Below, piece after piece: positions 1-61,213 of a DNA stretch of 64,000 nucleotides; within the stretch, counting starts at the first letter, position 1; every line of letters starts with the position of its first letter. The DNA comes from Flaccisagitta enflata. Taxonomy: Eukaryota. Under the pieces are notes generated by a model. It did not search any database and was not told the DNA's origin. It saw nothing but the letters and a program-made list of their open reading frames with translations. The stretch covers positions 11,532,001 to 11,596,000 of the forward strand of contig OZ231126.1 of NCBI GenBank assembly GCA_965153355.1. The letters are read 5' to 3'. The translations under genes and the position numbers were made by a program.

Positions 1-496
1 TCACCTTAATGCCGGTCGTTCATTATACGAATTTTGTATACTTCTCTCAATTTATATGTTCTTTTGTCAATCGGTTTGTTGGTCGGTACTTTGATTACCT
101 TTAAGCAAAATAATCGCTATGGATACGGTGAAGCTAACGCAGGGTTCTGAAGCAGGGTTCTGCAGTATGATTAGTGAGGTATGAATATAGTCCAAATCTC
201 AAAGATAGTCTGATGTTGTGGGGAAACCGATTGCTAAAGAATGACAAAGAATGAATTTGTTGGTCGATTTCTTGCTTTGATATTCTCTGTTGTTAGCCGT
301 TAAATGCAGATAAAAAGAAAACGACTTTTTTGTTTTGGTTTGAAGAGGAATTTGTTTGATGATTTCATCATTCGCGCATCAATAAAAAAATTACTAGTTT
401 CCCATCGTCAGGTCTTCTTGGGTGGCTGATTTTGCTTACACACGCTCTACCTAATCTCATTTTATCACTGTTTTTCCTTTTCTTCTTCTTCCTCTC

Positions 497-528
<32 letters not shown>

Positions 529-562
529 TTTCTTTTTCTTTTTCTTTTTCTTTTTCTTTTTC

Positions 563-593
<31 letters not shown>

Positions 594-20592: not shown

Positions 20593-20617
20593 GCGACAAT
20601 CATCAAATGAAACTCAC

Positions 20618-22098: not shown

Positions 22099-22633
22099 GA
22101 CGCCGCCGATGGAGAGAAGCGGAATCTGCGGAAGTCAGAATAAGAGCGTGGGAGGAGACAGAAAAGATGAGAGCGATGAAGGAGACGCCGTAGAATTTGA
22201 GGGGGGAGTAGAAACAAGGGAGGTGGAGAAGAGGGGGAAAATGAAAACCGAAATAAGATTTGAGGAATTAATCTTTAAATCAAACGATGGCTTGTCAAGA
22301 CCCACTTTAGCCACTTCATTCTTTTTTTTCAGTCGCGTATGGAAAAACGACTGTACAAAAAAAATATCTACGTGTAATAATTTGATTTCGTATAGATAGA
22401 TGCAAAATAGGACGCGGGCGACTTAATTCTTGGTCGAGTGTCCCACCTTCTTGATCTACTGAAATAAGTAGAGTGATACTGTTCTGATAATTTTCTTTTC
22501 AAAAATGAACGGAACGATCAGGGGAATGAAAAGCGTCCATTTGAAAGCAAAACATTTGATTTACACGTACAATATTTCTCTCTCTCTCTCACTTTTTCCA
22601 GTGCCTCCCAATAACCCTTTGGCCTTGAGGCTG

Positions 22634-26519: not shown

Positions 26520-26911
26520 GGTGTTGTTGTTGTTGTCGTTGTTTCCCTCTCTTTCGAATACTACAGTTGATTTTTTTCTACGTTTACAGAGGTTATGCAA
26601 AATCAATGAAAGATGAGAAGAATTGACAAATCGAGAAATCGGTAAAACCTAAGACTTCGATGAAGAGGAGGCAGAAAAGGAGGAGGAAGTGGAGGACGAG
26701 AAGAAGAGAAAGAATTAAGAAGTTCGCGTACGAACTCATGAAAGAACGAAGATTTCTTTCTCTCTTTCGCTCGGGAAGGAAAGTGAAGAAGGAATCGGGA
26801 TAAGGAGGAGAAGGTGGAGAAGGAAGAGGAGGAAGAGGAATGATGAGGATGGGGAAATGCGAAAAAGGGTCGATTATAGGGCGGTATTTTATGATGGAGT
26901 TCGGAGGAAAA

Positions 26912-27073
26912 GAACAAGGCCGGATACACGGCAATCCAGTCGCGGACGGTTGGGCAGGAGCAGTAATGCAAAAACTGCTCGGAATTCAAAAATGTGACGG
27001 ACGGACGGACGGACCTACCGACCGACACGGCAAGGTGTAGAGTCGCGTGTCCGCGACTAAAAATCAGACAGAA

Positions 27074-27450: not shown

Positions 27451-27893
27451 ATAGGCGGTCAGCGGTAGACAGTGGCACCCGTGCCCTGATTGTAGTTGAA
27501 GGTGGGAGCGGCCCCGAAGGGGTCGAAGACCTATGCTTTCACACAGGGGAATTTTCTCCTTCTTCTCCTCCTTCTCCTTCTCCTCCTCCATCCCCCTAAC
27601 CCCAACCTCCAGTTTCATATCTCAGCCTTGAGGCCTATATCCCAGCCTGGAGGCTGAAATTCCCAAATTCCTTGAAGCTGGGATTTGGGCCTAGAAGATG
27701 GGATTTTTGCCTTTAGATGGGATTTGGGCCTTACGTTAAGGTTGTGATTTGGGCTTAAAGGCTGGGCTTCGAGGCTGAGATATGAGCCTCGAGGCTGAGG
27801 TATGAGCCTAGAGAGGGAGGGGTATAAAGAAGGAGAAAATTCCCCTTTGTGAAAGCATAGGACATCGATCCCTTTGGGGCCGCTGGCCAAAAA
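27451..27893. mobile_element. Long-inverted-repeat element with a degenerate ~20-bp internal array
   Basis: ~55-bp inverted repeats at about 27508-27563 and 27828-27883 (GCGGCCCCGAAGGGG...CCTATGCTTTCAC..AGGGGAATTTTCTCC). Confidence 0.65.
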
Positions 27894-27902
27894 GGAAGGG
27901 AA

Positions 27903-28786
27903 GACCAGTCGCCCAAGGGCAATATGTGGTCAGCGATACCCGTTGCCCTGCTGTGTATGTTTGTGATTGTAGGTGATGGGTAGCAGGGCAGCGGCCCCAA
28001 AGGGGACGATGTCCTGTAGAACACAGGGGGACTTTTGTTCGTTCGTCCATCCATGTGAGCAGATTTGAGCCTTAAGGCTGCAATTTGAGCCTCAAGCAGG
28101 GATTTGAGCTTCGAGGCTAAGATTTGAGCCTTGAGGTTGAGATTTGAGTCTCGAGGCTGGGTTTCAAGCCTCGAGGCTGGAATTTGAGCCTTGAGGTTAG
28201 AATTTGAGCCTCGAGGCTGGAATATGAGCCTCGAGGCTGGGATATGAGCCTCGAGGCTGGGATATGAGCCTCGAGGCTGGGATATGAGCCTCGAGGCTGG
28301 GATATGAGCCTCGAGGCTGGGATATGAGCCTCGAGGCTGGGATATGAGCCTCGAGGCTGGGATATGAGCCTCGAGGCTGGGATTTGAGCCTCGAGGCTGG
28401 GATTTGAGCCTCGAGGCTGGGATTTGAGCCTCGAGGCTGGGATTTGAGCCTCGAGGCTGGGATTTGAGCCTTGAGGCTGGGATTTAAGCCTCAAGGATGT
28501 GATTTGAGCCTTGGGGCTGGGATTTAGGCCTTGAGGCTAAGATTTGAGCCCCAAGGCTGGGATTTGAGCCTTGAGGCGGGGATTTGAGCCTCAAGGTGAG
28601 GATTTGAGCCGCGAGGCTGAGATTTGAGCTTCAAGGCTGGTATTTGAGCATCGAGACAGGAATTTAGCCTATAGGCAGAGATTTGAGTCTCAAGGCCAGG
28701 GGGGGGGGACGCACGCACGCACGCACGAACGAAAGTCCCCCTGTGTTCTACAGGACATCGTCCCCTTTGGGGCCGTTGCCCAAAAA
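27903..28786. mobile_element. Long-inverted-repeat (foldback/HINE-like) element with a 20-bp tandem array
   Basis: Leader GTCGCCCAAGGGCAATATGTGGTCAGCGATACCCGTTGCCCTGCT; IRs at about 27986-28042 and 28725-28781; array (GAGCCTCGAGGCTGGGATAT)n between them. Confidence 0.8.
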
Positions 28787-31489: not shown

Positions 31490-31722
31490 AAACAAGGCCG
31501 GATACACGGCTACCCCAGTCGCGTGCGGGTGGGCAGGGGCCATAATTGAGGTCACTCCATCATTTGGGCAGGAGCAGTGAGGCCAAAAACCGCAAAAACC
31601 CAAAAAAGTAAAGTGTGACGGATGGACCGACGGACGGACCGACGGACGGACGGACCGACGGACGGACGGACCGACGGACCGACAAAGCGGGGTGTAGAGT
31701 CGCGTAGCACGCGACTAAAAAA
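31490..31722 (-). mobile_element. HINE-like element, main family (other copies 34619-34876, 44517-44705, 45477-45726, 46780-46982)
   Basis: AACAAGGCCGGATACACGGCTACCCCAGTCGCGTGC...(GGAC)n...GTAGAGTCGCGTAGCACGCGACTAAAAA. Confidence 0.8.
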
Positions 31723-33082: not shown

Positions 33083-33993
33083 AAACAAGGCCGGATACAC
33101 GGCTACCTCAGTCGCGTGCGGGTGGGCAGGAGCAGTGCTAGAGAAGGTCACTAGAGCATTTGGGCAGGAGCAGTAGGATCAACCAGTCGCCCATGGGCAA
33201 TATGTAGTCAGCGATACCCGTTGCCCTGCTTTGAGTGATTGTGAATTGGAGTGAGGGGAAGCAGGGCAGCGGCCCCGAAGGGGACGATGTCCTGTAGAAC
33301 AGGCAATTTTGTTCGTCCTGCTTGAAGAATTGGATGAGATGCTGACTGGCCTTTAAGAACCCCAACTGGGGTGTAAGAAGAGTGATGAAAGGCCTGAGAA
33401 TGTCCATTGGAAGCTTGAGATGGCTGGCTTGAGGCTTGAACGAGCTGGATTAAGGCTTGAAAGGTCAGGACTGATTTGAAGCCTGAGAGCAATACATTAA
33501 GGCTTAGATAGCTGATTTTAGGCCTGAGAGTCCTAATTTGAGGCCTGAGACTCTCAGGCTGAGAGGCAGGTTTGAGCCCTGAGAATTTGGATTTGAGGCC
33601 TGAGAAGCCTAAATTGAGGCCTGAGAGGCGAGGTTTGAGACCTGAGAGGTTGGATTTGAGACCTGAGAGGCCGGATTTATGGCCTGAGAGGCTGGATTTG
33701 AGAACTGAGAGGCTGGATTTGAGGCCTGAGAGGCCAGATTTGAGGCCTGAGAGGCCAGATTTGAGGCCTGAGGGGCCTGTTGAGATGGGGGGGGGGGGGA
33801 CGAATGGACAAACGAACGAACAAACAAACGAAAGTCCCCTGTGTTCTACAGGACATCGTCCCCTTCGGGGCCGCTGCCCAAAAAGCTCAAAAATGCTGAA
33901 AAAGTGAAAAGGGGACCGACCAACCGACCGACCGACCGACCGAACGACCATCCGACATAGCGGGGTGTAGAGTCGCATAGCACGCGACTAAAA
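33083..33993. mobile_element. HINE interrupted by a long-IR/21-bp-array element (33181-33884)
   Basis: Flanks 33083-33180 and 33885-33993 join into a complete HINE matching 34619-34876. Confidence 0.75.
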
Positions 33994-34412: not shown

Positions 34413-35651
34413 GTAGAACCGGTTTTAACAACTTTTTACGTTTGCTTACGAAAACATTTAGTTTGAATGTCGCCATCTTTGATAAAAAAGAAAACATACA
34501 GAATAAGCAAAACCCATTATACTTTCGGTTTTCGGTTTTACCTGTTTGGCTGTCCAAGCAATTGGCCAACTGCTGCATAATATTATTTTTCTCGAGGAGA
34601 TGGTGAAACGTAGAAATGAAACAAGGCAGGATACACGGCTATCCCAGTCGCGTGCGGGTGGGCAGGAGCAGTGCTGTTGAATGTCACTAGAGTATTTGGG
34701 CAGGAGCAGTAAGCTCAAAAAGCTCCCAAACGCCGAAAAAAGTTAAAAGGGGACCAACCGACCGACCGACCAACCAACCAACCAACCAACCAACCAACCA
34801 ACCAACTAACCGACCAACCGACCGACCGACCGACTGACAAAGCGGGGTGTAGAGTCGCGTAGCACGCGACTAAAAATGGGAAAAATAAGCACAGCAGTGA
34901 TTCAACAGTGTAGACGTGGAGCACTTTTGATAAAAACACTTTTAATAAAAAACAACCATAATGGAGCAGTAGCGAATAATGACCGTGGAATTGCTGATGG
35001 GCATGAGCTCCCTTCTCGCCAATCTTTTCTTTTGCAGCATATTCATTTTCAGGAATATTGTCAACAGCTTGTAGGATCCAAGGCGTCGAACGTACATTTT
35101 GTAAAATGACAATAGACTCATGCGTGAAGTTAAGATTTTTTTTGCAAACCTACCAGTTTCAATAAGAAACAAGTTGAATTCTACTCTGAGCGGAAACTCG
35201 TCAAGGACAAAGCAGACATTTGATATTTCGTCGTTTAAGGAAAAGGAAGAGAGTTTGTCGCTTCAAATCCTGTCTTTCCGCCTTCCCGCTCTTTTAATGT
35301 TGAAAAAAAAAGAAAAACGGAAACGATGCAGCAACAGGGGTCATCGGATTTTTTTCTCGGCACTCTGAATAAGAAATCTACACTTGTCGACACCGAAGAG
35401 GAAGAGGAAGCGCGTTTTGATTTACTGTCCGATCTTTGCGTTTTTGTGTAAAAAAGAATATGTATGTCATATTTTCGTCAGCATAATTAGCCACAGTACA
35501 TACAATGCATCATACAGTAACAAAAGAAAACATTTAGGTAATATGTAAGAAAAAAATGGTAAAATAGGAGCAGTTCCAGTATCATTAACAGCTTGAGTAA
35601 GCGTCAAAGATCTCAATTTGGATTGCATGTCAACCGTTAACAGCGAAAAAA

Positions 35652-35745
35652 GTCTTAGCTGTCTCCTTATCTTAGCTGTCTCCTTGTCTTAGCTGTCTCC
35701 TTGTCTTGGCTGTCTCCTTGTCAAAAAGTCTTAGCTATCTCCATG
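35652..35745. repeat. 17-bp tandem repeat
   Basis: GTCTTAGCTGTCTCCTT, about 5 copies. Confidence 0.8.
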
Positions 35746-36126
35746 TCAAATTTCATCATGCTTAGGCATTCTTAGGCATTTTTACTATCTATATTGATCA
35801 TATTAATTTTATGCCTAATTATGTGAGACCTGTTAATCTTCATCATGTCAATAACAATACCAATACCAATCTTCATCATACCAATACCAATGAAAATGGA
35901 TAGATCGGATACACGGCACTAACTTACTCTTCGACTTTCAGGCGGGGAGCTCGGGATGAAAGTTTTTCCACTCCCAGATCAAACATAAAATGTCTAAACG
36001 AAGAATACCAAACTGATATTCGATGAACGGACATATTGATAGCCATTGATAGGCAATCTTCTAGAGATGTGGTTACGCATCTAAACTTTTTGTCGAAAGT
36101 AATTTAGTACGTCATTTTGAATCAAA

Positions 36127-38392
36127 ATGGAACAAGAACAAAATAACAACAATGTCAAAGGGCTCACGGAAAGTAGGGCAACAGATGATGGAGCACCAAG
36201 ACAACCCCACCCTTCGTCATCATTATCACTGCCATCGATCTCAGGATTGCCTCAATCAGAAGTAAGAACGAGTTTTTCAAACAACAAAATAGGAGAACAG
36301 AATGTTGCAAGCATAATAATAAAAAACGAGGTTTCTCTTGATGGAGACGTGCAAAAAAGTCAGGCCGACGGACATGGCTCAAAATCACACCCTTTACCAA
36401 AAGACAGAGGGGGAAATACGGCTGAAACTCGTCGTACTTATCCAGTTTTGAAGATTTGGATACGTCAAAATCTGTTTCTCTATGAGTTTTTCAGGAAGCT
36501 TTACTCCGAGATGACCCACGATGAAGTCAAAGATGAAAATGATGATATGAATCTGGCTGAGCTTATAGCAAGCCTTAAGGACAGATATGGCGAGTTGAGA
36601 CAAGACTTATTTAAGAGGATTGAGAATGAGCATCATGAGATTAGACAGTTACCATCCGCTCTTAATGGGGAGATGCGGTGGAACCAAATCAACGCGCTTA
36701 CAAAAGCAGTGGCGGATAGTTTCCATTCGAAAAAAGTTTTCAGTCAAGGGTTCACCATTGACTGGGCTAGACAAAAGCATGTTGGATGGGTTGACCTTTT
36801 TTACCTTAAGATTTGTTACCGGGGTGACGAAGTTGCACAAGGCTATCTTCACGAGTTAGAAAACAGCACGCTCCCACTCACTCAACCGAAAATGGAACAA
36901 CACTATTTTTCCACCCAACTGCCTTCTCCATATGTTTCACGTCCGCAGCTTGAACAAACGGTCAAACAGCACACTGATGGTGAAAGATTAGTCTACCTTT
37001 TTGGCCAATGCGGTAGTGGCAAATCCACCCTCGCACATCAAAATTTGAAAGGGGAAGAAGAATATTTCCCTGTTCAATTTCCCGATGCTCTTCCGGATGA
37101 AAAACCCCAAATAACGATAGAACGATTTGCCGAGGAGGTCTTGGAGAAATGCGGCGCGTTGCCACCACTGATTGACTCAATTAGTGACATTTTAAGGCCA
37201 ACTAGTCGCCTCCTCAGTTTCCTTAAGAAGCAGGATGGGAAAAAGTTTGTTCTTGATCCAATTGACGATGTTCTGAGAACAGAGCAGACCACAGAATGCT
37301 TCATCAATTATCTTAACGATTTACTGAATACCAATGTATCATTAGTCTTGATCTCAAGTCTAAATGAAAGTAGCAAGTTGAAAATGTGCAGCAAAAATAT
37401 ACGCATTCCAATATTCTCAGAAGATGAAAGCATCTATTTTCTCACCCAGTTTTTCGCTACCAAGGATAGTTCGGAATTCTTTGAAGATTTTGATTATGCA
37501 ACGATTGCCCGCTATTCGGGGTACAATCCAAAAGCTTTGAAAATCGTCGCGAATGCCTTGAAGGAAAAGATAGATATCTACGACTCTCTGACCAGAGAGG
37601 ACTTTTTATACACGTTGAATACTGCTGGCGTTAAAGAGAAAGTGGAACTAGATGAAATTATCCACGGGAGGATCGAGGGATTAGATCAGAAAACCAAAGT
37701 AATCCTTGAAGCTGTGTCTCTCTTCCCCCAAACGTTCCGCTTCAAGAGCGTTTGTGATTTACTGAACATCGATAATGTTCACACTATACTGTTTCAAGAA
37801 TCTGTAGCAAGTATTCAATCTGACGAACCGATTGACCTGACCGTGAATAGAGAAAATGCAAATTTGCACATCAAAGAACTTCAAGAAAATGTCATGGGGA
37901 AAAAGCAGGCAGAATTGAAAGACATTTGCTACAGAGCATTAAAAGAACTCATGAAAATGATGATGGTGGAGAAAAAAGATGGCCTATTTTGGTTAGATCC
38001 GTACGTCAGGCAAATTGCATTCAAAGTCTTTGCAAATAATCCCTTCCAATACCTTAAAGTTGAGTTTGGTCGCATTCAGATTCAAAAGTTACTGAAAAAG
38101 GCAACCGCCAAATCCATGTTGCCGACACGAGCAGAAATTCGACAATTGGTTGTTATGATTCTGAACAAATTCCCAGATGAACATCCGGCAAATATCCTTC
38201 ACTTCTCGCGTAATGAGATAAAGGAGATTTTTGCAGATGTCCAGGTGCCCATTAGCAAAGTTGTTTCGTGGTTAACGAGTTTTCAAGTTTTCTACAGTCC
38301 CTCTGAATATTTCAATACATGCGACATTTTGATGACTTGTTCTCCATTGGGAGCTGCAACTCAAACCGATAATGCCAACTCAAACTTTCGAG
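36127..38392 (+). CDS. STAND-class (NB-ARC/NACHT-like) P-loop NTPase, exon 1
   Basis: 759-aa ORF with non-repetitive composition; YVSR pre-P-loop motif, Walker A GQCGSGKS, Walker B FVLDPIDD, GxP-like motif SGYNPKALKIVA; phase-1 donor CGAG|gtaatt. Confidence 0.85.
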
Positions 38393-38554
38393 GTAATTCA
38401 TGGTAAAAAATTCCATCAATATCATATTAGATCAGCCAAAGACCCTTGATACCATCGTGACGCTCGCGGAAACCCTTTTCAATGGGAAATTCTACATTTT
38501 AGTAATCGATAGAAACAAATTCTAATCCTATGTTTCAACTCATCAAAATGACAG

Positions 38555-38737
38555 ATTTGCATGAAAACCGGAGTTATTCAGAAGCTCCAAAATGGCCATT
38601 TTTCCAATCTCCGCGAAGCACAGCATCTTCAACTTGTTCTCCGGCACCACCAACACCTGCCTCGTCACGCCCAGGGTCGGGCTACTGGACTCCATATTCA
38701 CAAGTTTCTTCCGCACCAACTCCAGCCAGTCATAGAG
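38555..38737 (+). CDS. STAND gene exon 2 (Ser/Pro-rich, symmetric phase 1-1)
   Basis: acag|AT acceptor and G|gtagag donor; 183 nt; keeps frame with exon 1 (DLHENRSYSEAP...PTPASHR). Confidence 0.65.
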
Positions 38738-39416
38738 GTAGAGCTCACTGGTCCAGGATGACCATCTATCAAGGAGAATAACGTTTCTTAACTTCACCAC
38801 CCTTAACCACCCCTATTCAGCATACACACTGGCCCAGATTGACCAGATGAATTACTTGTCTCAACATTCACCACCCCTAATCACCTTTAAAGGTGAATTA
38901 GTTATCTCAACATTCACTCTGAGTAAAGGTTATCTTGGACAGAGCACATGTTGATTGTAAAAACCTTCAAGAACTGTCCAGGCTGAGTATATCAGATCAT
39001 GTAAAGGTTTTTTTTTCAAATGATGCATCTTTTTTGCAGCCAAAATAACCTTGTTCCTAAATGCCCTCATTTTACATCCATATCCACAGCACATTCTCAC
39101 AATAAGCGAGTATAATCTTGCTCTGTCTCGTGATCTGTCTCGGTTCCCAAGTGGTTTTGCCTCTACTTCAATCAAGTTTTGGTACAGTTACCAATACGTA
39201 TCAAGCGTATTGGTGAAATTCGATTTTTAGTCGCGTGCTACGCGACTCTACACCCTGCTTTGTTGGTTCGTCAGTCCGTTGGTCCGTCCGTCCGTCCGTC
39301 TGTCCATCCGTCCATCCGTCACACTTTACTTTTTTTGGGTTTTTGCGGTCTCTGGCCTCACTGCTCACTGCTCCTGCCCAAATGATGCATTGACCTCAAT
39401 TACGGCCCCTGCCCAC

Positions 39417-39674
39417 TAAGGCCATGCGGATTTGGCCGTGAGAAGGCCAAGGCTCGGTTTTGAGGCCAAACCCGAAATTCGGTTTTGCCTTCAGGCCCGA
39501 CTTTGTTTTATAGGATATTTTTTCTTTTATATTATTCTTTTAATCTCACTTATCAAATCGTTTTTGTATTTTTTTCTCACCTTTTTAATAATATCATGTG
39601 TGTGTGTATGTGTACATTTATGCATGTGTGTATGTTTACAAATGTGTGTGTCTGTCTGTCTGTCTGTCTGTTTA

Positions 39675-39723
<49 letters not shown>

Positions 39724-40063
39724 ACTTGCATTTATTTGCTGTTTTTTTTCTTATTACAATGTTCAAACTTAGTCTTCTCCCCTTTTTTATTAACCTTTTA
39801 TCTCAGATTTATATATTTGTTTTTCTTTTTTTCTCTCAATTTTTGTTCTTGTTCTTTTTTTCTCTATTTTCTTTCTTTCACTTATTCTTCTCTCTCTATT
39901 TTTCTCTTATTTTTTCTCCTCTTTTGCAAATAACCAAATATCTTTTTGTCACTATATTTATTTAAAAACCCGATATAAACCCGTAATAAACCCGAGGAAA
40001 GGTTTTGAGGTATTCCGAACCCGAACCGAAACCGCGGAAAAAAACGCCATTTGCAAGGCCTTA
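39417..40063. mobile_element. hAT-type MITE inserted in a HINE (39224-40109)
   Basis: TIR TAAGGCC(A/T)TGC, 8-bp TSD CTGCCCAC at 39409-39416 and 40064-40071, subterminal AACCCG/CCGAA repeats. Confidence 0.85.
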
Positions 40064-40648
40064 CTGCCCACCCGCACGCGACTAGGGTAGCCGTGTATCC
40101 GGCCTTGTTCAAAAAAAAAACAGCTAAAGCAGTAAGATATCTCAGTACAATTGATTCTACTGACTTTATTGGATGGATTTTCTTTGGAAATGATTAAATG
40201 ACTTTCTACAATCTTACGAATTTACGATCTCAAGATCTTTCAATCTTACAATTTCAAATGTTTTGGATTTTTATTGTCAAGGACCCTGTTGGGAAAGACG
40301 CATCATTAGGCTTTCATGGGCTATCCATGAAGCAGTTTTACAATTACTTGTATTTGTAATCCCATGTTTCAACATAAAATTCATTCATTCATTCATTTGT
40401 TCACCACCCCTAATCACCGTCACAATGGCCCAGAATAACCACCTATTTAGAAGAATTACTTATCTCAACATTCACCACCCTTAACCACCCCTAATCACCA
40501 TGGGGTAAAAAAAGTCAGGCTTACAACGCCAGAAATATTACTGAAGGTATAAAGCCTAAAACAAATGATAAAATTGTGATAGTTGGGAATGTAATTTCCA
40601 ATGGGGAAACAAATTCTAATTCTATGTTTCATCTCATCAAAATGGCAG

Positions 40649-40822
40649 ATTTCCATGAAAACCTGAATTATTCAGAAGCTCCATTTTCCGAATCTCCGCA
40701 AAACATGGCATCGGTATCTTGCTTTCTAGCGCCACCAACGCCAGCTTCTTCACGTCCAGAGTCGGGATACTGGAGTCCACTATCGCAAGCCTCTTCTGCA
40801 CCGACTCCAGCCAGTCATAGAG
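40649..40822 (+). CDS. STAND gene exon 3 (diverged duplicate of exon 2)
   Basis: gcag|AT acceptor and G|gtgggg donor; 174 nt; paralogous to 38555-38737 with an in-frame 9-nt deletion. Confidence 0.6.
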
Positions 40823-41243
40823 GTGGGGTTAGAATAAGTCAGGCTTACAAGAGGGGACATCTAAAGACTGATAGAAAGTGACACCTTTGAGGTGAAAAGC
40901 GACTTTATTGCTAGAAAATGATAAAAAAAATCTTTCAGTCTATGCAACTGTATTTGGGCGGAAGCAGTAATGCAAAAATCACCCGGAAACACCAAAAAAG
41001 CAGTGTTACTGACGGACCAGCCAATCATCCGACGGACAAAGCGGGTTATAGGGTCGCGTGCATGCTACTAAAAATGTGTGCAACGCAATAATGATCCTCC
41101 CTGATCTCTTGAAGCTGGAACATCTTCCAACGGTATAAAAATCATAGATGTATCTAGTTTATTCTTACAAGAAGATTGATTAGATTGGCATATGCCTAGA
41201 ACATGCCAGTGAAAACAATGATGCTTCACATCCTCTCTAACAG

Positions 41244-41437
41244 ATATGGACAGTCCTTATGGTGTCACAGAGTGGGGGGAGCAAAACAAATATCCACCGA
41301 CTTTGCACCTCAATCCTTCGACTCCGGCACTAATTCACCCGATGGACCCCGGATCCTATGCGGCGGGGATGCCTATGACTATGTCACATATTCAACATGT
41401 TTCCACCCACTCTTTCTATGGTATGCCGCGTCGTTAA
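41244..41437 (+). CDS. STAND gene terminal exon
   Basis: Strong acceptor ctctctaacag|AT, phase 1; DMDSPYGVTEWG...YGMPRR then TAA. Confidence 0.6.
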
Positions 41438-42346
41438 TATCATCGCGTTCACGCTGGAAGTCAGTACGAATGGGTCAACCTCAATCAAAAAGCCTATTAC
41501 TATCTTCACCAAAAGAAACGCGACACCCTAGGCATGATATGATTAATTGGCTATACTCTATCAATTTTAATACCTGAGAGAGTTTATGGGTCAAGTAAGT
41601 TTTCTTCATATCAAAAGTGCATGCCGTGGGTTTCAAAGTCTTTACTTTTTCAAGATTACGATGGCCTTTTTAAAAAGACTCTGTAAGAGTCTTCCTAAGG
41701 CTAAACATAACTAAACTAAACTTAACTAAACAACCAGGCTGGTAATCTAGAATGCAATTTCTATCGCATTTATTCAGTGATAGGGGTCATACCCTTTTCT
41801 CATTCATGCACAGTTTTTGCAGGCCTATGATTTCTAAAACAGGTCTACGCTTTTGCTAGGCAATCTCCAAACGGCTTGAGCCACAGAATCGAAGATAATA
41901 GTGACTTTTCAGCATATCATTTGGGGGTTTTGATATTACATGTCCAATCATACAATACGCGACTAGTGAAGCGCTTTGAAAAAAAGCAAGGCCGGATATA
42001 CGGCTATCTAGTCGTGGACGGTTGGGCAGGAGCGGTAGTGCAAAAATCACTCAAATTCAAAAATGTTATCGACAGACCGACTGATTGACCGACACGGCAA
42101 GGTGTAGAGTCGCCTGTCCGCGACTAATAAATTCCATAAGTTTTCAACAAGACTCTTTTTTTCTATGTTTAAGATAGAGCGAGATTCTTGCCATATTTTG
42201 ATGTACAAAATGGTACGACTAGTGGAACAATATCCCTCACTGCACTCAAGCTGAAATGATTGTAATAGAATGGATAATTTTTGCATCAAAATCATCGATA
42301 ACAAAAAATCGTTTTATCAATATCTCACAATCTCGAAGGTAAAGAA

Positions 42347-42473
42347 ATGTCATCACCACACACAAAACGAATCAAAATTGGCCCATCTTTATCTGGAATC
42401 GAGTCACCACAATCAACTGCACCTATGAACAGGGTTTCAGAGACAGAATCCTTTTTAGAGCCTACAAATCCAG
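42347..42473 (+). CDS. Kelch protein exon 1
   Basis: ATG...EPTNP G|gtgag; phase 1 matches the acceptor ccaccag|GC at 43088. Confidence 0.7.
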
Positions 42474-42576
42474 GTGAGAAAAAGTTCATGTGTCTCACAA
42501 CATTCTTTTTCAACGAAAGTTTGGTAATGGCTTTTTCTTGTAACATCCTACTATCTCTTTTTTCTCTCCCCTCTCC

Positions 42577-42661
<85 letters not shown>

Positions 42662-42726
42662 GAACAGCAACAACAACAACAACAACAACCACAACAACAA
42701 CCACAACAACAACAACAACAACAACC

Positions 42727-42760
<34 letters not shown>

Positions 42761-42952
42761 AATCATTAACAAAATAACAATATTGACAATATGAACAATA
42801 ACGTCAACGACAACATTAACAACACCACCACCACCTAAAATCAAAAACAACAAGTGACGTGGGGTCACAAATTGTGGCATTGCCTAGTCTTGACCATTAC
42901 AACACTGACTTTACCCTTACAAATTTCAAATCTCTCTCTCTCTCTCTCTGTC

Positions 42953-43021
<69 letters not shown>

Positions 43022-43087
43022 CTCGCTCTCACTCTCTCTCTCTCTCTCTCTCTCACTCTATCTCTCTCTCTCTCCCTCCTCCACCAG

Positions 43088-44169
43088 GCAAAGTTTCTTC
43101 ACCACGTCGGCATCTCATCGCTTTGCCGCCGACATTTGAGGACGACTGGAATTCCGCGACTAGTTTTCCAGTCGGCGTTGGATTCGTCGGCGGCTTCATC
43201 GGCGATCAACTCATCCTCTGGGGTGGGGCTCAGACGCAACCAGACGGAAGTTTCATCTTTCTCCCCTCCAACTTTGTTTACTCATTCACGCCGAGTCGAA
43301 ATCAAAGAGACAAAGGAGAATGGAAACGGATTTTGGCGACTGGCGATGTTCATCCTGGAAAAGGATATGCGGCTTACGTGATCCACGATAACTCTCTTCA
43401 CATCTTCGGAGGGGATAAAGGCGGCTGGGATCTCGTCAACGACATTTCCACTCTCACCGCCGATGGCAAATTCACGCGTCTTCCTTCCACAGGTGACATT
43501 CCCTCTCCGCGACAAGATCATCGCGGCTGGTCCTACGATGGCAAGCTCTTCTTTTTCGGCGGCTATGTTAAGCAGATAGACGAGACGCGAAAAGAAGATT
43601 TCGTCGAATGGGCAAGCAAGAAAGAACATTGGGTCTTTCACACCAACGAACTCTATCAATTCGATCCTCGCGCCAACACTTGGAAACGCCTGACGATCAT
43701 CGGCGAGAAACCGACGCCTCGATCCAGTTTCGCCGTCGCTCAAATCGATCATCGCGTTTTCATCCATGGAGGCTTCTGCAACGGGAGAAAGCTGACCGAC
43801 TTTTTCATGATCGACATGAAAACCATGGAGTCGGTCAAGATTGAAAACTCGGGAATCGCGAATGGCTTGGACGATCATTCTCTCACGCGTGTGTCGTTGT
43901 CTCAGCTTTTCCTCGTCGGTGGGAATCCAGGCATCAACACCGACGGAGTCTCGAATCGAGTCGCGATTTTCGACGTCGACAAATTGGAATGGAAGGAAGA
44001 AGCGCCGCTTTCATCAAAATTTGGCGGGGATGAAGGAGGGTTGAAATGGTATCAGGCATTTGAAATGCAGAATGAAAACGGAGTCACGGTGATTTGCATC
44101 GGAGGCTACGTCGATGTTAATATGAAGCAACATCCAGATCACTTCGCCATCTTTGACTTTTCCACGTGA
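43088..44169 (+). CDS. Kelch-repeat beta-propeller protein, KLHDC1/KLHDC2-like, exon 2 (about 402 aa in total)
   Basis: Six GG-containing Kelch blades (LILWGG, LHIFGG, LFFFGG, VFIHGG, LFLVGG, ICIGG) with PSPR/PTPR motifs; WSYDGKLFFFGGY resembles KLHDC1/2. Confidence 0.9.
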
Positions 44170-44390
44170 TATCGTTTAAGCATTTCTTTTTTTTGCACAG
44201 AGCTAGAGAGATCAACATTTTTTTCGAAGTCTTGAAAAGAGATAAGGATGATACCTAAAAGATTTAATGTCACTACCATTGATTCAAATCATTTAATTGG
44301 TATTATGAAAGCTATGTTTTAAGTTAGATTTTCCAATTTTATTAGATCAGCATTTTTATCCCTATGTTTAAAATTCTTTAACATTTTACT

Positions 44391-44460
<70 letters not shown>

Positions 44461-46527
44461 TCATCCACCTCCCCTTTGACTCCCCGAAATAGAACTACAA
44501 AACTTCCTCAGAGTAATTTTTGGCGCGTGCTCGCGACTCTACGACCCGCTATGTTGGTCAGTCGGTAGACGTTAGCTTTTTAAAGCGTTTTTGGCGTTTT
44601 TGGCTTTTGCATCACTGCTCCTGCCCAAATGCTTGAGTTATTACGTTTCCTCACTGCCCCTGCCCACCCGCACGCGACTTCGTTAGCCGTGTATACGGCC
44701 TTATTTGATTAAGACACCGAATCTGGTATGCAGTTATATATAACGTTTCATAAGTAAAAGATTAACATTTGCGGTCAAGAAAACACAAACGCCACCTCTC
44801 AACCCTAAATTCCCACACAAGGATACATTTTCTTTCTTTTTTTGCATCAGTGATAATTTTTTTCTTCCATACTGCTCATACCCAAGTACGAGTGACTTTG
44901 GCTGTTATAACGGACTTCATTAACCGTCATAGATACCCCCTCGACTACATAAGTAATTTACATTAAGCATTCAATTCACAGCTTCAAACCCCTCACATTT
45001 GCCGCTTGCATTGCAGAATATTGTGCGGTGTAATTCATATCGCGAAGGCCCAAAAATATTTCAGAACTTAAAAAACAGATATTGGTGACCCCTTAAAAAC
45101 ATTAAAACAACAACGGTGTTTTATATTCTTTCGAAAATATCGATGATACTCACGATCGTTGAAGGTGGACTTTTAGCGGCGCATCCTCATCTGCGTCAAT
45201 GTAGATATCTTCAATAAATTTTGCGCTTTGTTTTCACTTTTTCTTCCGTATGTACAGATATTTGTGATTATTTTGATGATAGTTTTTTATTTCTTTTCAT
45301 GGTTGACGTGCGCATGTGCGTAGAAACACCAGGAGAGTTAATGTCTTGTCACCATTTGATATCTATCGCTTGTATGTTCGCTGTTGGATTGAGAGGCTAT
45401 TTAAGCAGCGATTATATCTAAGACGAACAACGCTGTAGTGTGGCTGATTCATATTTCATCATCTCCTAATTGAAGAAACAAGGCCAGATACACGGCTACC
45501 CCAGTCGCGTGCAGGTGGGCAGGGGCCGTATTTGAGGTCACTTGATCAATTGGGCAGGAGCAGTGAGGCCAAAGACCGCAAAAGCAGAAAAAAGTAAAGT
45601 GTGACGGACGGACGGACGGACGGACGGACGGACGGACGGACGGACGGACGGACGGACGGACGGACGGACGGACGGACGGACGGACGGACAAAGTGGGGTG
45701 TAGAGTCGCGTAGCACGCGACTAAAAAGTAATTGATGGAGAGATCCAGAAAGAGTGAAACAGAATAATTACGAGTGGATAAAGCTGCAGAGAGATTGTTT
45801 AAAACAGGCCAGGAAACACGGCTACTCCTGTCGCATGCGGATTGTGAGGAGTAGTGATAAATAAGATCACTACGCTATTTGGGCATTGTAAATGTAATTT
45901 CGAAAAGCAATTGAGCGAAATAATGAGGACACTTAGTGGGGTTACAAAGCCTTTCAGATACTAACAAGGAACAGTACGGTTATGACATCTGCAGAATGGG
46001 GCTAGAAGAGATAAAGGCAACGAATGAGCAGAGCTGAGCAATGAAATCACTGATGGCTAGCACTGATAACAAATCTAGGTAGGGCGTTATCATTCAATTT
46101 TGCAAAAGTACGTGTGTATGATTTAAGGATTGCAGAGGTAAATTGTGAACGATACGATGGGGATAGCTTACAGTGTAAAAAAAAAGTCAATGGACAATAG
46201 ACAATAGATAGGCAATTTGAATTAAGTCTCTTTCAATGGTCGTTGCAAGAAAAAAGAACTTCAGTGGGCGCAACTTTGGAAAAAAAACTCCAAAAAAGAA
46301 AAAAATATTCCTTTTTTAATCCACTGCAAATTTGAAGTAATTCCGACTTTTTTTGCCGCGAAAAGATAAGGACGGAGTTGGAATTGAAAAAAGGCTCAGA
46401 AAGAGAAGTAAACAAATTTTTACATTAAAAAAATTATTTTTTTTCTTCTGTTTTTCGCTTTTTCTTTCTTTTCAAAATTGAAAGCGTTGTCGAGAAACCG
46501 CTCTTGATCGATCTCAATTGCCGTGAG

Positions 46528-54537: not shown

Positions 54538-55026
54538 TCACTCTTCGTCCTCCTCTCCTCCAATATTCCCAATGGATTCCCTCGTTACTATCGTGACTTG
54601 CGGAAAAGGCATGCTCTTCTCAAAGGCTCTTTTGGCCATTTGCTTCAACTCTTCCGCGGATTCTCCCGTTTGGTCGACAAGCTCCTTCAGGATCGACTTC
54701 TCCTTGCACAACAGCAGATGCGGTTTGTCAAACTCGGCGACGTTTCCGGCGTCGAGGACGAGGATGCGGTCGGAATCCATGACCGTCTGCAGCCGATGCG
54801 CCACCGTTAACGTCGTGCATCCGCGGAACTTGGAACGGATCGTCCGCTGAATCAGTTTGTCCGTAAGATTGTCCAAGTTTGCCGTGGCTTCGTCGACGAG
54901 CAGGACGTTGCAGCGTTGAAGGATGGCTCGTGCGAGGCAAAGCAGTTGACGTTGGCCGACGGAGAGATTGGAACCGGATTCTTGAAGCTCCGTGTCCAGC
55001 GCGTCGGGAAGCTCCTCAACGGCAAC
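54538..55026 (-). CDS. ABCC4: ABCC4/MRP4-like ABC transporter, last exon (NBD2 signature, Walker B, H-loop)
   Basis: GSNLSVGQRQLLCLARAIL...LLVDEATAN...LTVAHRL; tctcag acceptor; stop at 54538. Confidence 0.93.
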   Translation of the reverse strand, partial: VAVEELPDALDTELQESGSNLSVGQRQLLCLARAILQRCNVLLVDEATANLDNLTDKLIQRTIRSKFRGCTTLTVAHRLQTVMDSDRILVLDAGNVAEFDKPHLLLCKEKSILKELVDQTGESAEELKQMAKRAFEKSMPFPQVTIVTRESIGNIGGEEDEE

Positions 55027-55389
55027 CTGAGAATGTGTTTAGAGCATTTTAAAAGTCGCTTGTATGCGAATAACTCAGTGTCAGCAACTTGATCGGTCAG
55101 TTGGTTGGTCAGCCGGTCATATTTGTCAATTAGGGAATTGGTAAAAGGTAAAAAACATATCACTCTTTGACATGAAGAGCTTAGGCATGGTCCTACCCGC
55201 TGATCCATCGTCATATCGCTGCCACAAACCGCATCAACGGGGAAATAAACTGTTTGAATCTTGAATCTTGAACAAACTGGCGTCACTACCTCCGCAAATA
55301 TGCCATAAGTCGCTTGTGCAAAACCATGATAAAACCCTAAGTAAGTCCGTTGGTTGGTCAGTCTGTCACTCTATGGATGTTAGGAAATA

Positions 55390-56665: not shown

Positions 56666-56758
56666 CTAATTGACGGATGTCTACTCCATCGATGAGAATC
56701 TTTCCCATTGGCTCAGCCATGCGAAAGAGCATTTGAAAGAATGAACTTTTTCCGGCAC
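56666..56758 (-). CDS. ABCC4: ABCC4-like exon (second half of Walker A)
   Basis: AGKSSFFQMLFRMAEPMGKILIDGVDIRQL; 93 nt, phase 1-1. Confidence 0.92.
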
Positions 56759-56798
56759 CTGAAATTTGGTAAATGGCATGAAATTATCATTAATGGTC

Positions 56799-56860
<62 letters not shown>

Positions 56861-56872
56861 AAACAAAAACAA

Positions 56873-56928
<56 letters not shown>

Positions 56929-56946
56929 GCAACAACAACAGTGGAC

Positions 56947-57063
56947 CTGTTCTTCCCACAATTCCGATTTTTTCTCTGCTTTTGATGTTGATGTTGATGT
57001 TTTTGAGAATGAATCGGTCATTTCGGTTGTACGCGAAGTAAACATTCCGCAGCATCATCGCTC
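56947..57063 (-). CDS. ABCC4: ABCC4-like exon (NBD2 start)
   Basis: AMMLRNVYFAYNRNDRFILKNININIKSREKIGIVGRT; 117 nt, phase 1-1. Confidence 0.9.
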
Positions 57064-57321
57064 CTAGAAAAGGATTAAGAGTTGAAGTGATGAGGGGTTT
57101 CAATGTCGTCGCGGCCAGGGGGTGGGAAGGGGCGGCAAAGGGCGTTGTTCACTTTTCGAGTCGATTTACGCGGACGGACGGATGTCATATTCGCCGTCCG
57201 ATCCTTTAAAGCGTCTCCATTTATCCAAATTCAAGCCCATCTTGATTAATCTCATCCAATCTTTCCTTCCGACGGCCATAAGGAGGTTAGTTTTGTATTT
57301 GGTTCATAGCAGTACACAGTA

Positions 57322-60726: not shown

Positions 60727-60873
60727 CTTCCGACGGCCATGAGGATGGTAGTCTTTTATTTTCTTCATGCCAGTCAGCCTCTGGTTGGAGACCACAGTAT
60801 TCCAAACATCTTTCCGCGGAAACCATTTGATTTTCTAAATCCGCAGTCTGACGAATTCCCCATTGGAACCAAC
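60727..60873 (-). CDS. ABCC4: ABCC4-like exon (end of TMD2)
   Basis: WFQWGIRQTADLENQMVSAERCLEY...SSWPSE, characteristic of ABCC4-type proteins; gtaag donor. Confidence 0.93.
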
Positions 60874-60896
60874 CTAAATGGTAGACATGGTTTAAC

Positions 60897-61026
<130 letters not shown>

Positions 61027-61027
61027 C

Positions 61028-61213
<186 letters not shown>

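What the first reader, a model, noticed from the sequence alone, without database searches (positions are those of the whole stretch)
36127..41437. Orphan STAND/NLR-like NTPase with an unknown N-terminal domain and a disordered Ser/Pro tail instead of a sensor repeat
Seen: intact Walker A and B and a GxP-like helical-domain motif, all in one 2.27-kb exon. They are preceded by a ~140-aa apparently globular segment (aa ~105-245) that I cannot assign to DEATH/CARD/TIR, and followed by a helical region and three small exons encoding a Ser/Pro/Tyr-rich tail (total ~938 aa). Established: animal STAND proteins (Apaf-1/CED-4, NLRs) are effector-NBD-sensor switches, often with a single-exon NBD. Inference: a lineage-specific innate-immune or cell-death switch with a possibly novel effector domain. 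This is the best candidate for an undescribed system in the window.
Basis: partly seen in the sequence, partly recalled or inferred. Interest (0 to 1): 0.72.

Follow-up and report, generated by a model that had tools for sequence, protein, structure and literature searches.

The report
Divergent sensor-less Apaf-1-like NTPase gene
This is an intact gene for a very divergent Apaf-1/CED-4-type molecular switch from a small, poorly sampled animal-type gene family; it has an unassigned helical front domain and no repeat sensor in its main exon, which is unusual but still a variation on a well-known kind of immune or cell-death protein.

Summary
The 759-codon ORF (36127-38403, +) is real. Pfam NB-ARC scores above its cutoff. 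A model of aa 255-759 aligns with Apaf-1 from the nucleotide-binding domain to the end of HD2 (Z 17.9). Walker A, Walker B and GxP are present. Two nucleotide-state residues are replaced: the sensor-1 Arg by Leu412, and the MHD His by Asp624.

The N-terminal domain (aa ~104-250) folds confidently as a helical bundle. It has no Pfam, PDB-sequence or Foldseek match. Its best structural rows are HEPN domains, but at noise level (Z at most 5.9).

The family is tiny: 21 hits among 1.84 billion representatives. All but one are unnamed. The named one is a Lingula HEPN_DZIP3-NB-ARC-TPR protein.

The Ser/Pro tail is plausible but unproven. The best donor-like site of the whole ORF lies 11 nt before the stop. 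Two tail exons are tandem duplicates with coding-type divergence (pN/pS 0.20). All junctions are phase 1. No RNA evidence could be obtained.

A separate small gene, or a plain stop at 38404, remains possible. The Kelch propeller 4.7 kb downstream looks like an independent KLHDC2-like gene.

Verdict: a new variant of a known kind, of moderate interest.

The parts
36127..38406 (+). Main coding exon of the STAND NTPase: 759 codons plus TAA at 38404-38406. If it is spliced, the exon ends at 38392.
   Evidence: homologues P0002, P0003, P0008 and P0023 start at the same Met-Glu
36127..36435 (+). N-terminal ~100 aa, polar and low in complexity, with one conserved short motif (QNVASIIIKNE, aa ~58-68). 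This part was not modelled.
   Evidence: alignment
36436..36876 (+). N-terminal helical domain, aa ~104-250. Family signatures are WIRQNxF (aa 111), R184-W185 and W221-V-D223..Y226-L227. An Rx4H motif at aa 164-169 occurs only in this gene and its two closest relatives.
36976..37632 (+). Pfam NB-ARC match, aa 284-502
   Evidence: 28.3 bits, cutoff 23.5
37003..37029 (+). Walker A / P-loop, GQCGSGKST (aa 293-301)
37246..37269 (+). Walker B variant, FVLDPIDD (aa 374-381). D377, I379 and D380 are invariant in 7 of 7 aligned relatives.
37360..37362 (+). Leu412 at the sensor-1 arginine position. The Lingula relative has TSR here, and distant family members P0014 and P0017 have SR.
37516..37539 (+). 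GxP motif of HD1, SGYNPKAL (aa 464-471)
37996..37998 (+). Asp624 at the position of the MHD histidine. The local sequence is FWLDPYVRQ, directly after the winged-helix beta-hairpin.
38044..38361 (+). C-terminal helical domain, aa ~640-745, which aligns with Apaf-1 HD2
   Evidence: model 17..492/496 against Apaf-1 128..546/586
38390..38398 (+). Donor-like site GAG|GTAATT (GT at 38393-38394), phase 1, 11 nt before the stop. It is the top-scoring of the 96 GT sites in the ORF.
38512..38581 (+). Flank upstream of candidate exon X. It is duplicated at 40606-40675 with only 6 differences in 75 compared positions. It contains in-frame ATGs and the candidate acceptor TTATTCAG|AA.
38582..38737 (+). Candidate tail exon X (156 nt, phase 1-1), Ser/Pro-rich
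40676..40822 (+). Candidate tail exon X' (147 nt, phase 1-1), a tandem duplicate of X
41244..41437 (+). Candidate last tail exon, with acceptor ctctaacag|AT and stop TAA at 41435-41437. The first + strand AATAAA after it is at 42126.
42347..42473 (+). Neighbouring gene: ATG-containing first exon of a KLHDC2-like Kelch gene, with donor CCAG|GTGAGA, phase 1
43088..44169 (+). Neighbouring gene: Kelch beta-propeller exon. It is most likely independent, but it is phase-compatible with the STAND donor.

Best explanation
The locus encodes an intact but highly divergent NB-ARC (Apaf-1/CED-4-type) STAND NTPase. It belongs to a small, lineage-restricted family of an unnamed eukaryote, probably an invertebrate animal.

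Shown: the layout is a ~100-aa polar N-terminus, a ~150-aa helical-bundle domain of no assignable family, and then NBD-HD1-WHD-HD2. The ORF ends exactly where Apaf-1 would continue into its propeller sensor.

Inferred mechanism: like CED-4 or Apaf-1, the protein binds nucleotide through an intact P-loop and Walker B. It then oligomerises and so clusters its N-terminal helical domains, which act as the output module. That module is possibly a catalytically degenerate HEPN-like domain.

Inferred regulation: the main exon carries no repeat sensor, and the residues that normally read the nucleotide state are replaced (sensor-1 Arg by Leu412, MHD His by Asp624). Control is therefore more likely to come from a partner protein, as CED-9 controls CED-4, or from a C-terminal extension, than from a classical ADP-locked ligand sensor.

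Inferred gene structure (about 50-55%): the CDS continues from the donor at 38392|38393 into Ser/Pro-rich cassette exons X, X' and a last exon. These would add up to about 165 disordered residues with 11 Ser/Thr-Pro sites.
For: - Pfam NB-ARC scores above its cutoff.
- The AF2 model of aa 255-759 has pLDDT 72.8.
- Foldseek's top hits are Apaf-1 3sfz and 1z6t, at E 7e-7 and 1e-6 over 524-554 columns.
- VIA gives 6mfv Z 18.4, Apaf-1 3sfz Z 17.9 (367 residues aligned, model 17..492 against 128..546) and NRC2 Z 17.1.
- The motifs were located, and the sensor-1 and GxP registers were fixed by BLASTP against the Lingula NB-ARC protein.
- All 8 family members that cover the MHD column have Asp or Glu there. 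At the sensor-1 column, 6 of 8 members lack Arg.
- The N-domain model has pLDDT 78.6. Its top three VIA rows are HEPN domains (Swt1-C 4pqz Z 5.9, 1wwp Z 5.7, sacsin 3o10 Z 5.6), and several more HEPN-type rows are among the 50 listed.
- An Rx4H motif lies at aa 164-169, at the end of the third core helix. That is where PMC3710099 places the HEPN motif (passage read).
- An N-terminal HEPN on a STAND is a known invertebrate theme (passages of PMC8260672 and PMC9646362). The nearest named relative has HEPN_DZIP3 at the same position.
- For splicing: the donor-like site is the best of 96 GT sites and lies 11 nt before the stop.
- X and X' differ with Sd 12.7 and Nd 6.3, giving pN/pS 0.20. This is the best of six frames, with binomial p 4e-4.
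- All junctions are phase 1, and every spliced model stays open.
- There is no + strand AWTAAA between the ORF stop and 39985, but there is one at 42126, after the tail stop.
Against: - There is no transcript evidence at all: 0 reads were laid.
- The donor score is modest in absolute terms (2.97 bits), and the matrix was recalled from memory and is human-like.
- The X and X' acceptors have poor pyrimidine tracts, with fractions of 0.40 and 0.50.
- Both X copies carry in-frame ATGs, so they could be alternative first exons of a separate small gene.
- Four relatives (P0003, P0014, P0015, P0022) also end within about 10-35 residues of the last conserved motif. That fits a true C-terminus as well as read-through into an intron.
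- The HEPN resemblance is at noise level: the best Z is 5.9, while the tool notes that unmatched models typically reach 7-8.
- No Pfam HEPN hit was found in any of the 10 members scanned.
- hhalign against the Lingula HEPN_DZIP3 region gave a probability of 0.1%.
- The Rx4H motif is present in only 3 of 8 aligned members.
- An immune or cell-death role is inferred from the family alone. No paralogue cluster lies in the window.
Confidence: 0.55

Rival explanations
1. Single-exon gene. The NTPase CDS ends at TAA 38404 and gives 759 aa. Exons X or X' plus the last exon then form a separate small gene of about 125 aa, Ser/Pro/Tyr-rich, with two alternative, tandemly duplicated first exons that each carry their own ATG.
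For: - In-frame ATGs in a conserved context sit in both copies, at 38530/38548 and at 40642.
- The 70 nt before the proposed acceptor are far better conserved than synonymous sites inside the exon: 6 differences in 75 positions against pS 0.46. That would suit a 5'UTR and start region.
- The pyrimidine tracts at the X and X' acceptors are weak.
- Relatives' ORFs stop at about the same place.
Against: - The best donor-like site of the ORF sits 11 nt before the stop. The chance that the top site falls in the last 15-60 nt is about 0.7-2.6%.
- All 6 differences between the copies from 38512 to 38581 are non-synonymous in that frame.
- There is no + strand AWTAAA for 1.58 kb after the ORF stop.
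Confidence: 0.3
2. Apaf-1-like full architecture. The NTPase exon splices from 38392 to the Kelch exon at 43088, with or without intervening exons. The product would be about 1115 aa with a beta-propeller sensor directly after HD2.
For: - The ORF ends exactly at the end of the HD2-equivalent, where Apaf-1 continues into its propellers.
- The Kelch exon lies on the same strand 4.7 kb downstream. It has no Met before the propeller, it has the best acceptor in the region (pyrimidine fraction 0.95), and it is phase-compatible. The joined frame is open.
Against: - An ATG-containing exon at 42347-42473, with a strong in-phase donor CCAG|GTGAGA, gives an ordinary ~400-aa protein.
- The best solved relative is KLHDC2 (E 5e-21), aligned in register with KLHDC2's own N-terminus: query 31 against chain 33.
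- Phase agreement alone happens by chance one time in three.
- The exhaustive search found no relative with an NB-ARC plus Kelch layout. The only long hit among 21 carries TPR.
Confidence: 0.08
3. The N-terminal bundle is not HEPN-related. It is either a membrane-disrupting four-helix executioner of the MLKL or plant CC type, or a fold with no described relatives.
For: - Foldseek found no PDB match with E below 2.
- The best VIA Z is 5.9, below what unmatched models usually reach.
- MLKL 4btf appears at Z 4.7, within 1.2 of the HEPN rows.
- There is no sequence or profile link to HEPN.
- The strongly conserved W-V-D..Y-L block, aa 221-227, lies outside the part that most listed matches, including the HEPN rows, align to.
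Against: - HEPN-type entries fill the top three rows and recur through the list, whereas MLKL is a single row.
- HEPN-STAND fusions are common in invertebrates.
- The nearest named relative carries HEPN_DZIP3 at the same place.
Confidence: 0.3
4. Degenerate switch. With the sensor-1 Arg and the MHD His both lost, the protein no longer cycles between ADP-locked and ATP-open states. It would act as a constitutive scaffold or regulator of paralogues rather than as a receptor.
For: Leu412 and Asp624 sit at the two positions. The distant family members P0014 and P0017 still have the sensor-1 Arg, which suggests a secondary loss.
Against: The P-loop Lys299 and the Walker B Asp377, Asp380 and Asp381 are conserved. 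The acidic residue at the MHD position is itself conserved in 8 of 8 members, which suggests an altered mechanism rather than a lost one.
Confidence: 0.2

Closest known systems
Apaf-1 / CED-4 (NB-ARC apoptosome NTPases)
   Same: The NBD-HD1-WHD-HD2 module matches: Pfam NB-ARC is above its cutoff, and Apaf-1 aligns at Z 17.9 from residue 128 to 546-586. Like CED-4, the main ORF has no repeat sensor.
   Different: There is no CARD. The N-terminal domain is an unassigned helical bundle. The sensor-1 Arg and the MHD His are replaced. Sequence identity is only 12-13%, and PDB sequence searches find no STAND or NB-ARC chain at E 0.001 or better.
Lingula anatina XP_013412328 (HEPN_DZIP3 - NB-ARC - TPR), the only named hit
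   Same: It is the closest named NBD: 23% identity over 357 aligned positions, E 1e-13 pairwise, and E 4.5e-5 in the library search. It shares the Walker B variant D-x-x-D-[DE] and the GxNPxAL motif. It also has a ~140-aa helical domain directly before the NBD.
   Different: The Lingula protein has a recognisable HEPN_DZIP3 with RNQLSH, a TSR sensor-1, LHP at the MHD position, and a long TPR sensor. The window's protein has none of these.
DZIP3-like HEPN-NACHT / NB-ARC expansions of cnidarians and bivalves
   Same: These also put an N-terminal four-helix domain on a STAND NTPase in invertebrate immune repertoires (passages of PMC8260672, PMC9646362 and PMC3710099).
   Different: Those domains are recognised by Pfam PF18738, and 194 of 202 in the pearl oyster keep Rx4-6H. 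Here there is no Pfam hit, and the motif is not conserved in the family.
Prokaryotic STAND-TPR protein 6mfv and MalT
   Same: These give the best or a high structural match of the NTPase module, at Z 18.4 and Z 15.3.
   Different: They carry TPR or SUPR sensors and different N-termini. There is no sequence-level relation.

Membership tests
NB-ARC domain family (Pfam PF00931; AP-ATPase clade of STAND) | Profile match at or above the curated cutoff | tested here: met
   28.3 bits against 23.5, aa 284-502. 5 of the 10 members scanned match NB-ARC at E up to 10.
NB-ARC domain family (Pfam PF00931; AP-ATPase clade of STAND) | P-loop GxxxxGK[ST] and Walker B hhhhD | tested here: met
   G293..K299-S300, and V375-L376-D377 followed by D380-D381
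NB-ARC domain family (Pfam PF00931; AP-ATPase clade of STAND) | NBD followed by HD1 (GxP), a winged helix and HD2, as in Apaf-1 | tested here: met
   GxP at aa 465-468. The model aligns with Apaf-1 128..546/586 at Z 17.9 and 14.3. The Apaf-1 domain limits are recalled, not taken from a call.
Canonical ADP-locked STAND switch (Apaf-1 / plant NLR mechanism) | Sensor-1 arginine (TTR/TSR) after strand beta-4 | tested here: not met
   Leu412 aligns with the R of TSR in the Lingula relative. 6 of 8 family members lack Arg here.
Canonical ADP-locked STAND switch (Apaf-1 / plant NLR mechanism) | Histidine of the MHD/LHD motif in the winged helix | tested here: not met
   Asp624 lies in FWLDPYVRQ, after the beta-hairpin. 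8 of 8 members have Asp or Glu here, while Lingula has LHP. The register comes from pattern and model, not from a residue-level structural alignment.
NLR in the strict sense (NACHT + LRR) | NACHT profile at or above cutoff, and C-terminal LRRs | tested here: not met
   NACHT scores 18.7 bits against a cutoff of 26.7. There is no LRR hit in the ORF or the tail exons.
Apaf-1 orthologue | N-terminal CARD and C-terminal WD40 propellers | tested here: not met
   There is no CARD or WD40 hit at E up to 10. The downstream propeller is Kelch and is probably a separate gene.
HEPN superfamily | Four-helix up-down bundle with an insert between helices 2 and 3 | tested here: inconclusive
   HEPN entries fill the top VIA rows, but at Z 5.9-4.5. 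Foldseek found nothing.
HEPN superfamily | Conserved Rx4-6H at the end of helix 3 | tested here: not met
   R164-x4-H169 is present in P0001, P0004 and P0023 only, which is 3 of the 8 members aligned there. The motif position is taken from the PMC3710099 passage.
HEPN superfamily | Profile match to a HEPN family such as PF18738 | tested here: not met
   0 of 10 members matched. hhalign against the Lingula HEPN_DZIP3 region gave probability 0.1%.
Death-fold (DEATH/CARD/PYD/DED) or TIR effector domains | Profile or fold match of the N-terminal domain | tested here: inconclusive
   No Pfam hit at E up to 10. The fold searches do not decide the matter.

The most novel reading that the evidence does not exclude
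The family would be a previously undescribed type of animal STAND with three unusual traits. First, it has an effector or sensor domain of a fold with no solved relative, or a HEPN derivative turned into an RNA receptor. Second, its nucleotide pocket has given up both the sensor-1 arginine and the MHD histidine, and so works without the classical ADP lock. Third, its control region is an alternatively spliced, proline-directed phospho-tail built from tandemly duplicated cassette exons, instead of a repeat sensor.
Probability: 0.15. Interest if true: 0.6.

Novelty: new variant of a known kind. Interest (0 to 1): 0.4.

Why it matters
Invertebrate STAND repertoires are large and combinatorial, so one more member is not surprising in itself. 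This family is worth noting for three reasons:
- It is almost absent from 1.84 billion representative proteins.
- Its N-terminal domain matches no profile or solved structure convincingly.
- It keeps the ATP-binding residues while replacing the two residues that normally lock and read the nucleotide state.

If the Ser/Pro tail is truly attached, it would be an example of a STAND regulated by a disordered, possibly phosphorylated and alternatively spliced region rather than by a repeat sensor. That idea can be tested with cDNA and simple biochemistry.

Tried and rejected
- **RNA evidence.** No RNA holder was listed. The single same-study RNA run was laid on 35000-45000 and gave 0 reads, so it is no test.
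- **Whole genome.** None is held, so there is no paralogue count. tblastn of P0001, P0003 and P0014 against the window found no second copy.
- **Related loci.** Two scans of metagenome contigs gave no confirmed relative. Downstream exons could therefore not be compared between species.
- **Profile protein search.** The search with alignment A1 returned only P0003.
- **PDB sequence searches.** With the protein, nothing scored better than E 0.59. With the family profile, the best hit was TnsC at E 0.0035, with Roq1 at 0.033.
- **Protein atlas.** The N-domain scored at best 0.78, and the last tail exon at best 0.79, against disordered transcription-factor fragments. Both are below the level of a lead.
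- **N-domain self-association.** The job gave no verdict.
- **N-domain second look.** The re-alignment of Foldseek's candidates gave a best Z of 4.2. No death-fold, TIR or plant CC entry appeared among the rows listed for the N-domain, which does not exclude them.
- **Tail as random ORFs or transposon debris.** I first thought this, because SINE-like repeats fill 39224-39416, 40064-40109, 40952-41075 and 41976-42130. I dropped the idea for X and X' after the synonymous-biased divergence. For the last exon nothing beyond an open frame, a fair acceptor and phase supports coding.
- **Relatives' C-terminal residues as read-through donors.** The result was ambiguous and I did not use it.
- **Rfam and tRNA scans of the window.** Both found nothing.
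- **Earlier-findings look-ups.** Three look-ups found nothing.
- **Supplements.** Supplementary tables of the cited papers were not seen. They may list HEPN-less or sensor-less STAND architectures.

Full report
**The observation**

The window is eukaryotic DNA of about 40% G+C, rich in microsatellites and short interspersed repeats. One frame is open from 36121 to 38406 on the + strand. Its first Met is at 36127, directly after an in-frame stop, and it gives 759 residues. Four relatives start with the same Met-Glu, which supports this start.

Pfam places aa 284-502 in NB-ARC at 28.3 bits, above the 23.5 cutoff. NACHT scores 18.7 bits, below its 26.7 cutoff.

- Walker A, G293-QCGSGKS-T301.
- Walker B, F374-VLDPID-D381.
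- GxP, S464-GYNPKAL. This aligns with GGNPLAL of a Lingula NB-ARC protein.

**The NTPase module**

An AlphaFold2 model of aa 255-759, built from a 17-row family alignment, has mean pLDDT 72.8 and pTM 0.73.
- Foldseek puts Apaf-1 first: 3sfz at E 6.8e-7 and 1z6t at 1e-6, over 524-554 columns. A STAND-TPR protein (6mfv), CED-4 and the plant NRC2 follow.
- Re-alignment with VIA gives 6mfv Z 18.4, Apaf-1 3sfz Z 17.9 (367 residues, rmsd 4.3, model 17..492 against chain 128..546), 1z6t Z 14.3 (17..496 against 128..586), NRC2 Z 17.1 and MalT Z 15.3.

So the ORF contains NBD, HD1, winged helix and an HD2-like helical domain, and then stops. By my recollection of Apaf-1's domain limits, this is where the WD40 sensor would begin.

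**Unusual pocket residues**

In the BLASTP alignment with the Lingula relative, Leu412 lies under the Arg of TSR, the sensor-1 position. In the family alignment, 6 of the 8 members that cover the column lack Arg. The two most distant members, P0014 and P0017, keep it.

Directly after the winged-helix beta-hairpin of the model, the sequence is FWLDPYVRQ. The Lingula protein has FDLHPLLRA there. All 8 of the 8 family members that cover this column have Asp or Glu where the MHD/LHD histidine would be.

The P-loop lysine and the Walker B acids are kept. I infer that the family binds nucleotide but reads its state in a non-canonical way. This is inference; no residue-level structural alignment was available.

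**The N-terminal domain**

Residues 98-262 were modelled with a 10-row alignment. The model has pLDDT 78.6 and pTM 0.77, and is all-helical with long helices at 8-33, 46-60, 62-75 and 84-101 plus a smaller C-terminal part.

Sequence and profile methods give nothing:
- No Pfam family matches it in any of the 10 members scanned.
- PDB sequence searches give nothing.
- Foldseek has no match with E below 2.

The Foldseek-independent scan of 48,161 chains gives a best Z of only 5.9. The tool notes that models without a clear match typically reach 7-8, and helical ones more. A second look at Foldseek's candidates gives at most 4.2.

Within that weak list, HEPN domains are conspicuous:
- The top three rows are the Swt1 C-terminal domain 4pqz (Z 5.9), 1wwp (Z 5.7) and sacsin HEPN 3o10 (Z 5.6).
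- Further down are MtlR/YggD (3brj, 3c8g, 6kcr) and the 'HEPN domain protein' 4nqf.
- PMC3710099 lists 1wwp, 3brj, 3c8g and Swt1 as HEPN families (passages).
- By my own recollection, Csm6 4rgp, 1ufb, 5yep, HepS 9oik, AbiA 8oz7 and Roquin 4txa are also HEPN-type.

That paper places the Rx4-6H motif at the end of helix 3 (passage). The window's protein has R164-IENE-H169 at the end of the third long helix. However, only 3 of the 8 aligned members have it (P0001, P0004, P0023). A profile comparison with the Lingula HEPN_DZIP3 region found nothing.

The strongest family signatures lie elsewhere: WIRQNxF at aa 111, R184-W185, and W221-V-D223..Y226-L227. My reading is a HEPN-like, probably non-catalytic bundle, at about 35-40%. 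A fold without solved relatives is equally open.

**How rare the family is**

An exhaustive phmmer search of 1.84 billion cluster representatives found 21 proteins with E at or below 1e-3, and 7 at or below 1e-30.
- All 9 that were looked up come from short contigs without names, except one. That one is Lingula anatina XP_013412328, which Pfam reads as HEPN_DZIP3 + NB-ARC + TPR.
- Identities to the window's protein range from 90% down to 25%. Several relatives stop prematurely at the same place on different contigs (P0004/P0023 and P0008/P0024). This suggests genomic contigs, a multi-copy family, and some interrupted or dead copies.
- N-terminal DZIP3-type HEPN domains on NACHT or NB-ARC proteins are common in cnidarians and bivalves (passages of PMC8260672 and PMC9646362). 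The general architecture is therefore known.

**The tail**

The interval 38.4-42.3 kb holds SINE-like repeats that recur through the window, so I first doubted the tail. Three observations changed that.

1. *The donor.* By a donor matrix that I recalled (human-like, heuristic), GAG|GTAATT with GT at 38393 is the best of the 96 GT sites in the ORF, at 2.97 bits against 1.99 for the next. It lies 11 nt before the stop. The chance of the top site falling in the last 15-60 nt is 0.7-2.6%.

2. *The duplicated exons.* The segments 38512-38739 and 40606-40824 are tandem duplicates that are 80% identical, and their similarity ends exactly at a shared AGAG|GT.
   - That gives pN/pS 0.20 with no stops, the best of six frames, and binomial p 4e-4.
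   - This is how coding sequence diverges.

3. *Phase.* The donor at 38392, a conserved acceptor TTATTCAG|AA before both copies, both copies' donors, and the acceptor ctctaacag|AT at 41243 are all phase 1. Every combination of these exons stays open. The full model gives 920 aa, and the tail is 18% Ser and 18% Pro with 11 Ser/Thr-Pro sites.

A canonical poly(A) signal on the + strand is absent for 1.58 kb after the ORF stop. One is present at 42126, after the tail stop; this is weak evidence.

Several points count against attachment:
- The X and X' acceptors have poor pyrimidine tracts, 0.40 and 0.50.
- Both copies carry in-frame ATGs.
- The 70 nt upstream are much better conserved (6 differences in 75) than synonymous sites in the exon. 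That would fit either regulated cassette exons or alternative first exons of a separate small gene.
- The last exon has no support beyond an open frame, a fair acceptor and phase.
- No family, repeat or atlas match exists for any tail piece.

The only RNA run offered laid no read on 10 kb, including the neighbouring gene, so it tests nothing.

My odds are:

| Model | Odds |
|---|---|
| Tail attached to the NTPase | about 50-55% |
| CDS ends at 38404 | about 30% |
| Kelch fusion | about 8% |
| Other | the remainder |

**The neighbouring Kelch propeller**

A 449-codon open frame at 42820-44169 (+) encodes a KLHDC2-type propeller (Pfam 9.4e-51). It has no Met before the propeller.
- A (CT)n tract ending in ccaccag|GC gives an excellent acceptor at 43087/43088.
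- An exon at 42347-42473 starts with ATG and ends in CCAG|GTGAGA in the matching phase. Together these give an ordinary protein of about 400 aa.
- Its best solved relative, KLHDC2 (E 5e-21), aligns in register with KLHDC2's own N-terminus.
- Only two unnamed relatives were found.

The NTPase donor is also phase-compatible with this exon, and a propeller after HD2 would mimic Apaf-1. I therefore keep the fusion as a minor rival.

**Mechanism and verdict**

- *Shown:* an intact NB-ARC NTPase module with an unassigned, well-folded N-terminal helical domain and no repeat sensor in its main exon.
- *Inferred from established knowledge of Apaf-1, CED-4 and NLRs:* nucleotide-dependent oligomerisation that clusters the N-terminal domains as the output. 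Control would come from a partner protein or a C-terminal extension, because the sensor is missing and the ADP-lock residues are replaced.
- *Inferred from family membership only:* the link to immunity or cell death.

It is best seen as a new variant of a known kind: a divergent, lineage-restricted member of the invertebrate STAND repertoire. It is not an orphan system. The attachment of the tail is the main open question, and a single cDNA experiment would settle it.

Noticed in passing
window 42347-42473 and 43088-44169 (+): A two-exon KLHDC2-like Kelch propeller gene lies directly downstream. Its second exon is preceded by a long (CT)n tract that serves as the polypyrimidine tract. Only two unnamed relatives were found in 5.8 billion proteins at near lengths.
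   Followed up: partly
window 39224-39416, 40064-40109, 40952-41075, 41976-42130 and many other places (e.g. 31529-31721, 45515-45727, 26908-27063): A family of short interspersed repeats, 70-85% identical between copies, occurs on both strands throughout the window. In translation the copies read like '..ACYATLHPALSVGRSVG..'. No tRNA or Rfam match was found.
   Followed up: partly
window 54538-55038, 56681-57148 and 60713-61330 (-): These are exons of an ABC transporter. An ABC_tran C-terminal signature is at 54538-55038, and nucleotide-binding-domain-like peptides are in the other two ORFs. Long (CT)n/(GA)n tracts interrupt them.
   Followed up: no
window 16683-17738 and 20614-22134 (-): An exon starts a Sec7 domain (Pfam 1.8e-11). 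Downstream of it on the minus strand is a large Ser/Thr/Gln/His-rich low-complexity ORF, possibly part of the same ARF-GEF-type gene.
   Followed up: no
window 27755-28483 (-) and 33208-33987 (-): Minisatellite-like tandem repeats read as long ORFs, with the repeated peptides ..SQPRGSNPSLEAQIPASRLK.. and ..GLKSGLSGLKS... The second lies in the most G+C-rich 2 kb of the window (0.53).
   Followed up: no
relatives P0004/P0023 and P0008/P0024 (unnamed contigs): Two pairs of relatives on different contigs end at the same internal position, one pair just before the P-loop and the other after ERFAQEFLD. This suggests either introns in those paralogues or shared disabling mutations, that is, pseudogenes in the family.
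   Followed up: no
window 36298-36330 (aa 58-68 of the ORF): A short motif, QNVASIIIKNE, is conserved within the otherwise variable, polar N-terminal 100 residues (4 of 4 close relatives). It contains a hydrophobic-Lys-x-Glu pattern, which I recall as the SUMOylation consensus.
   Followed up: no
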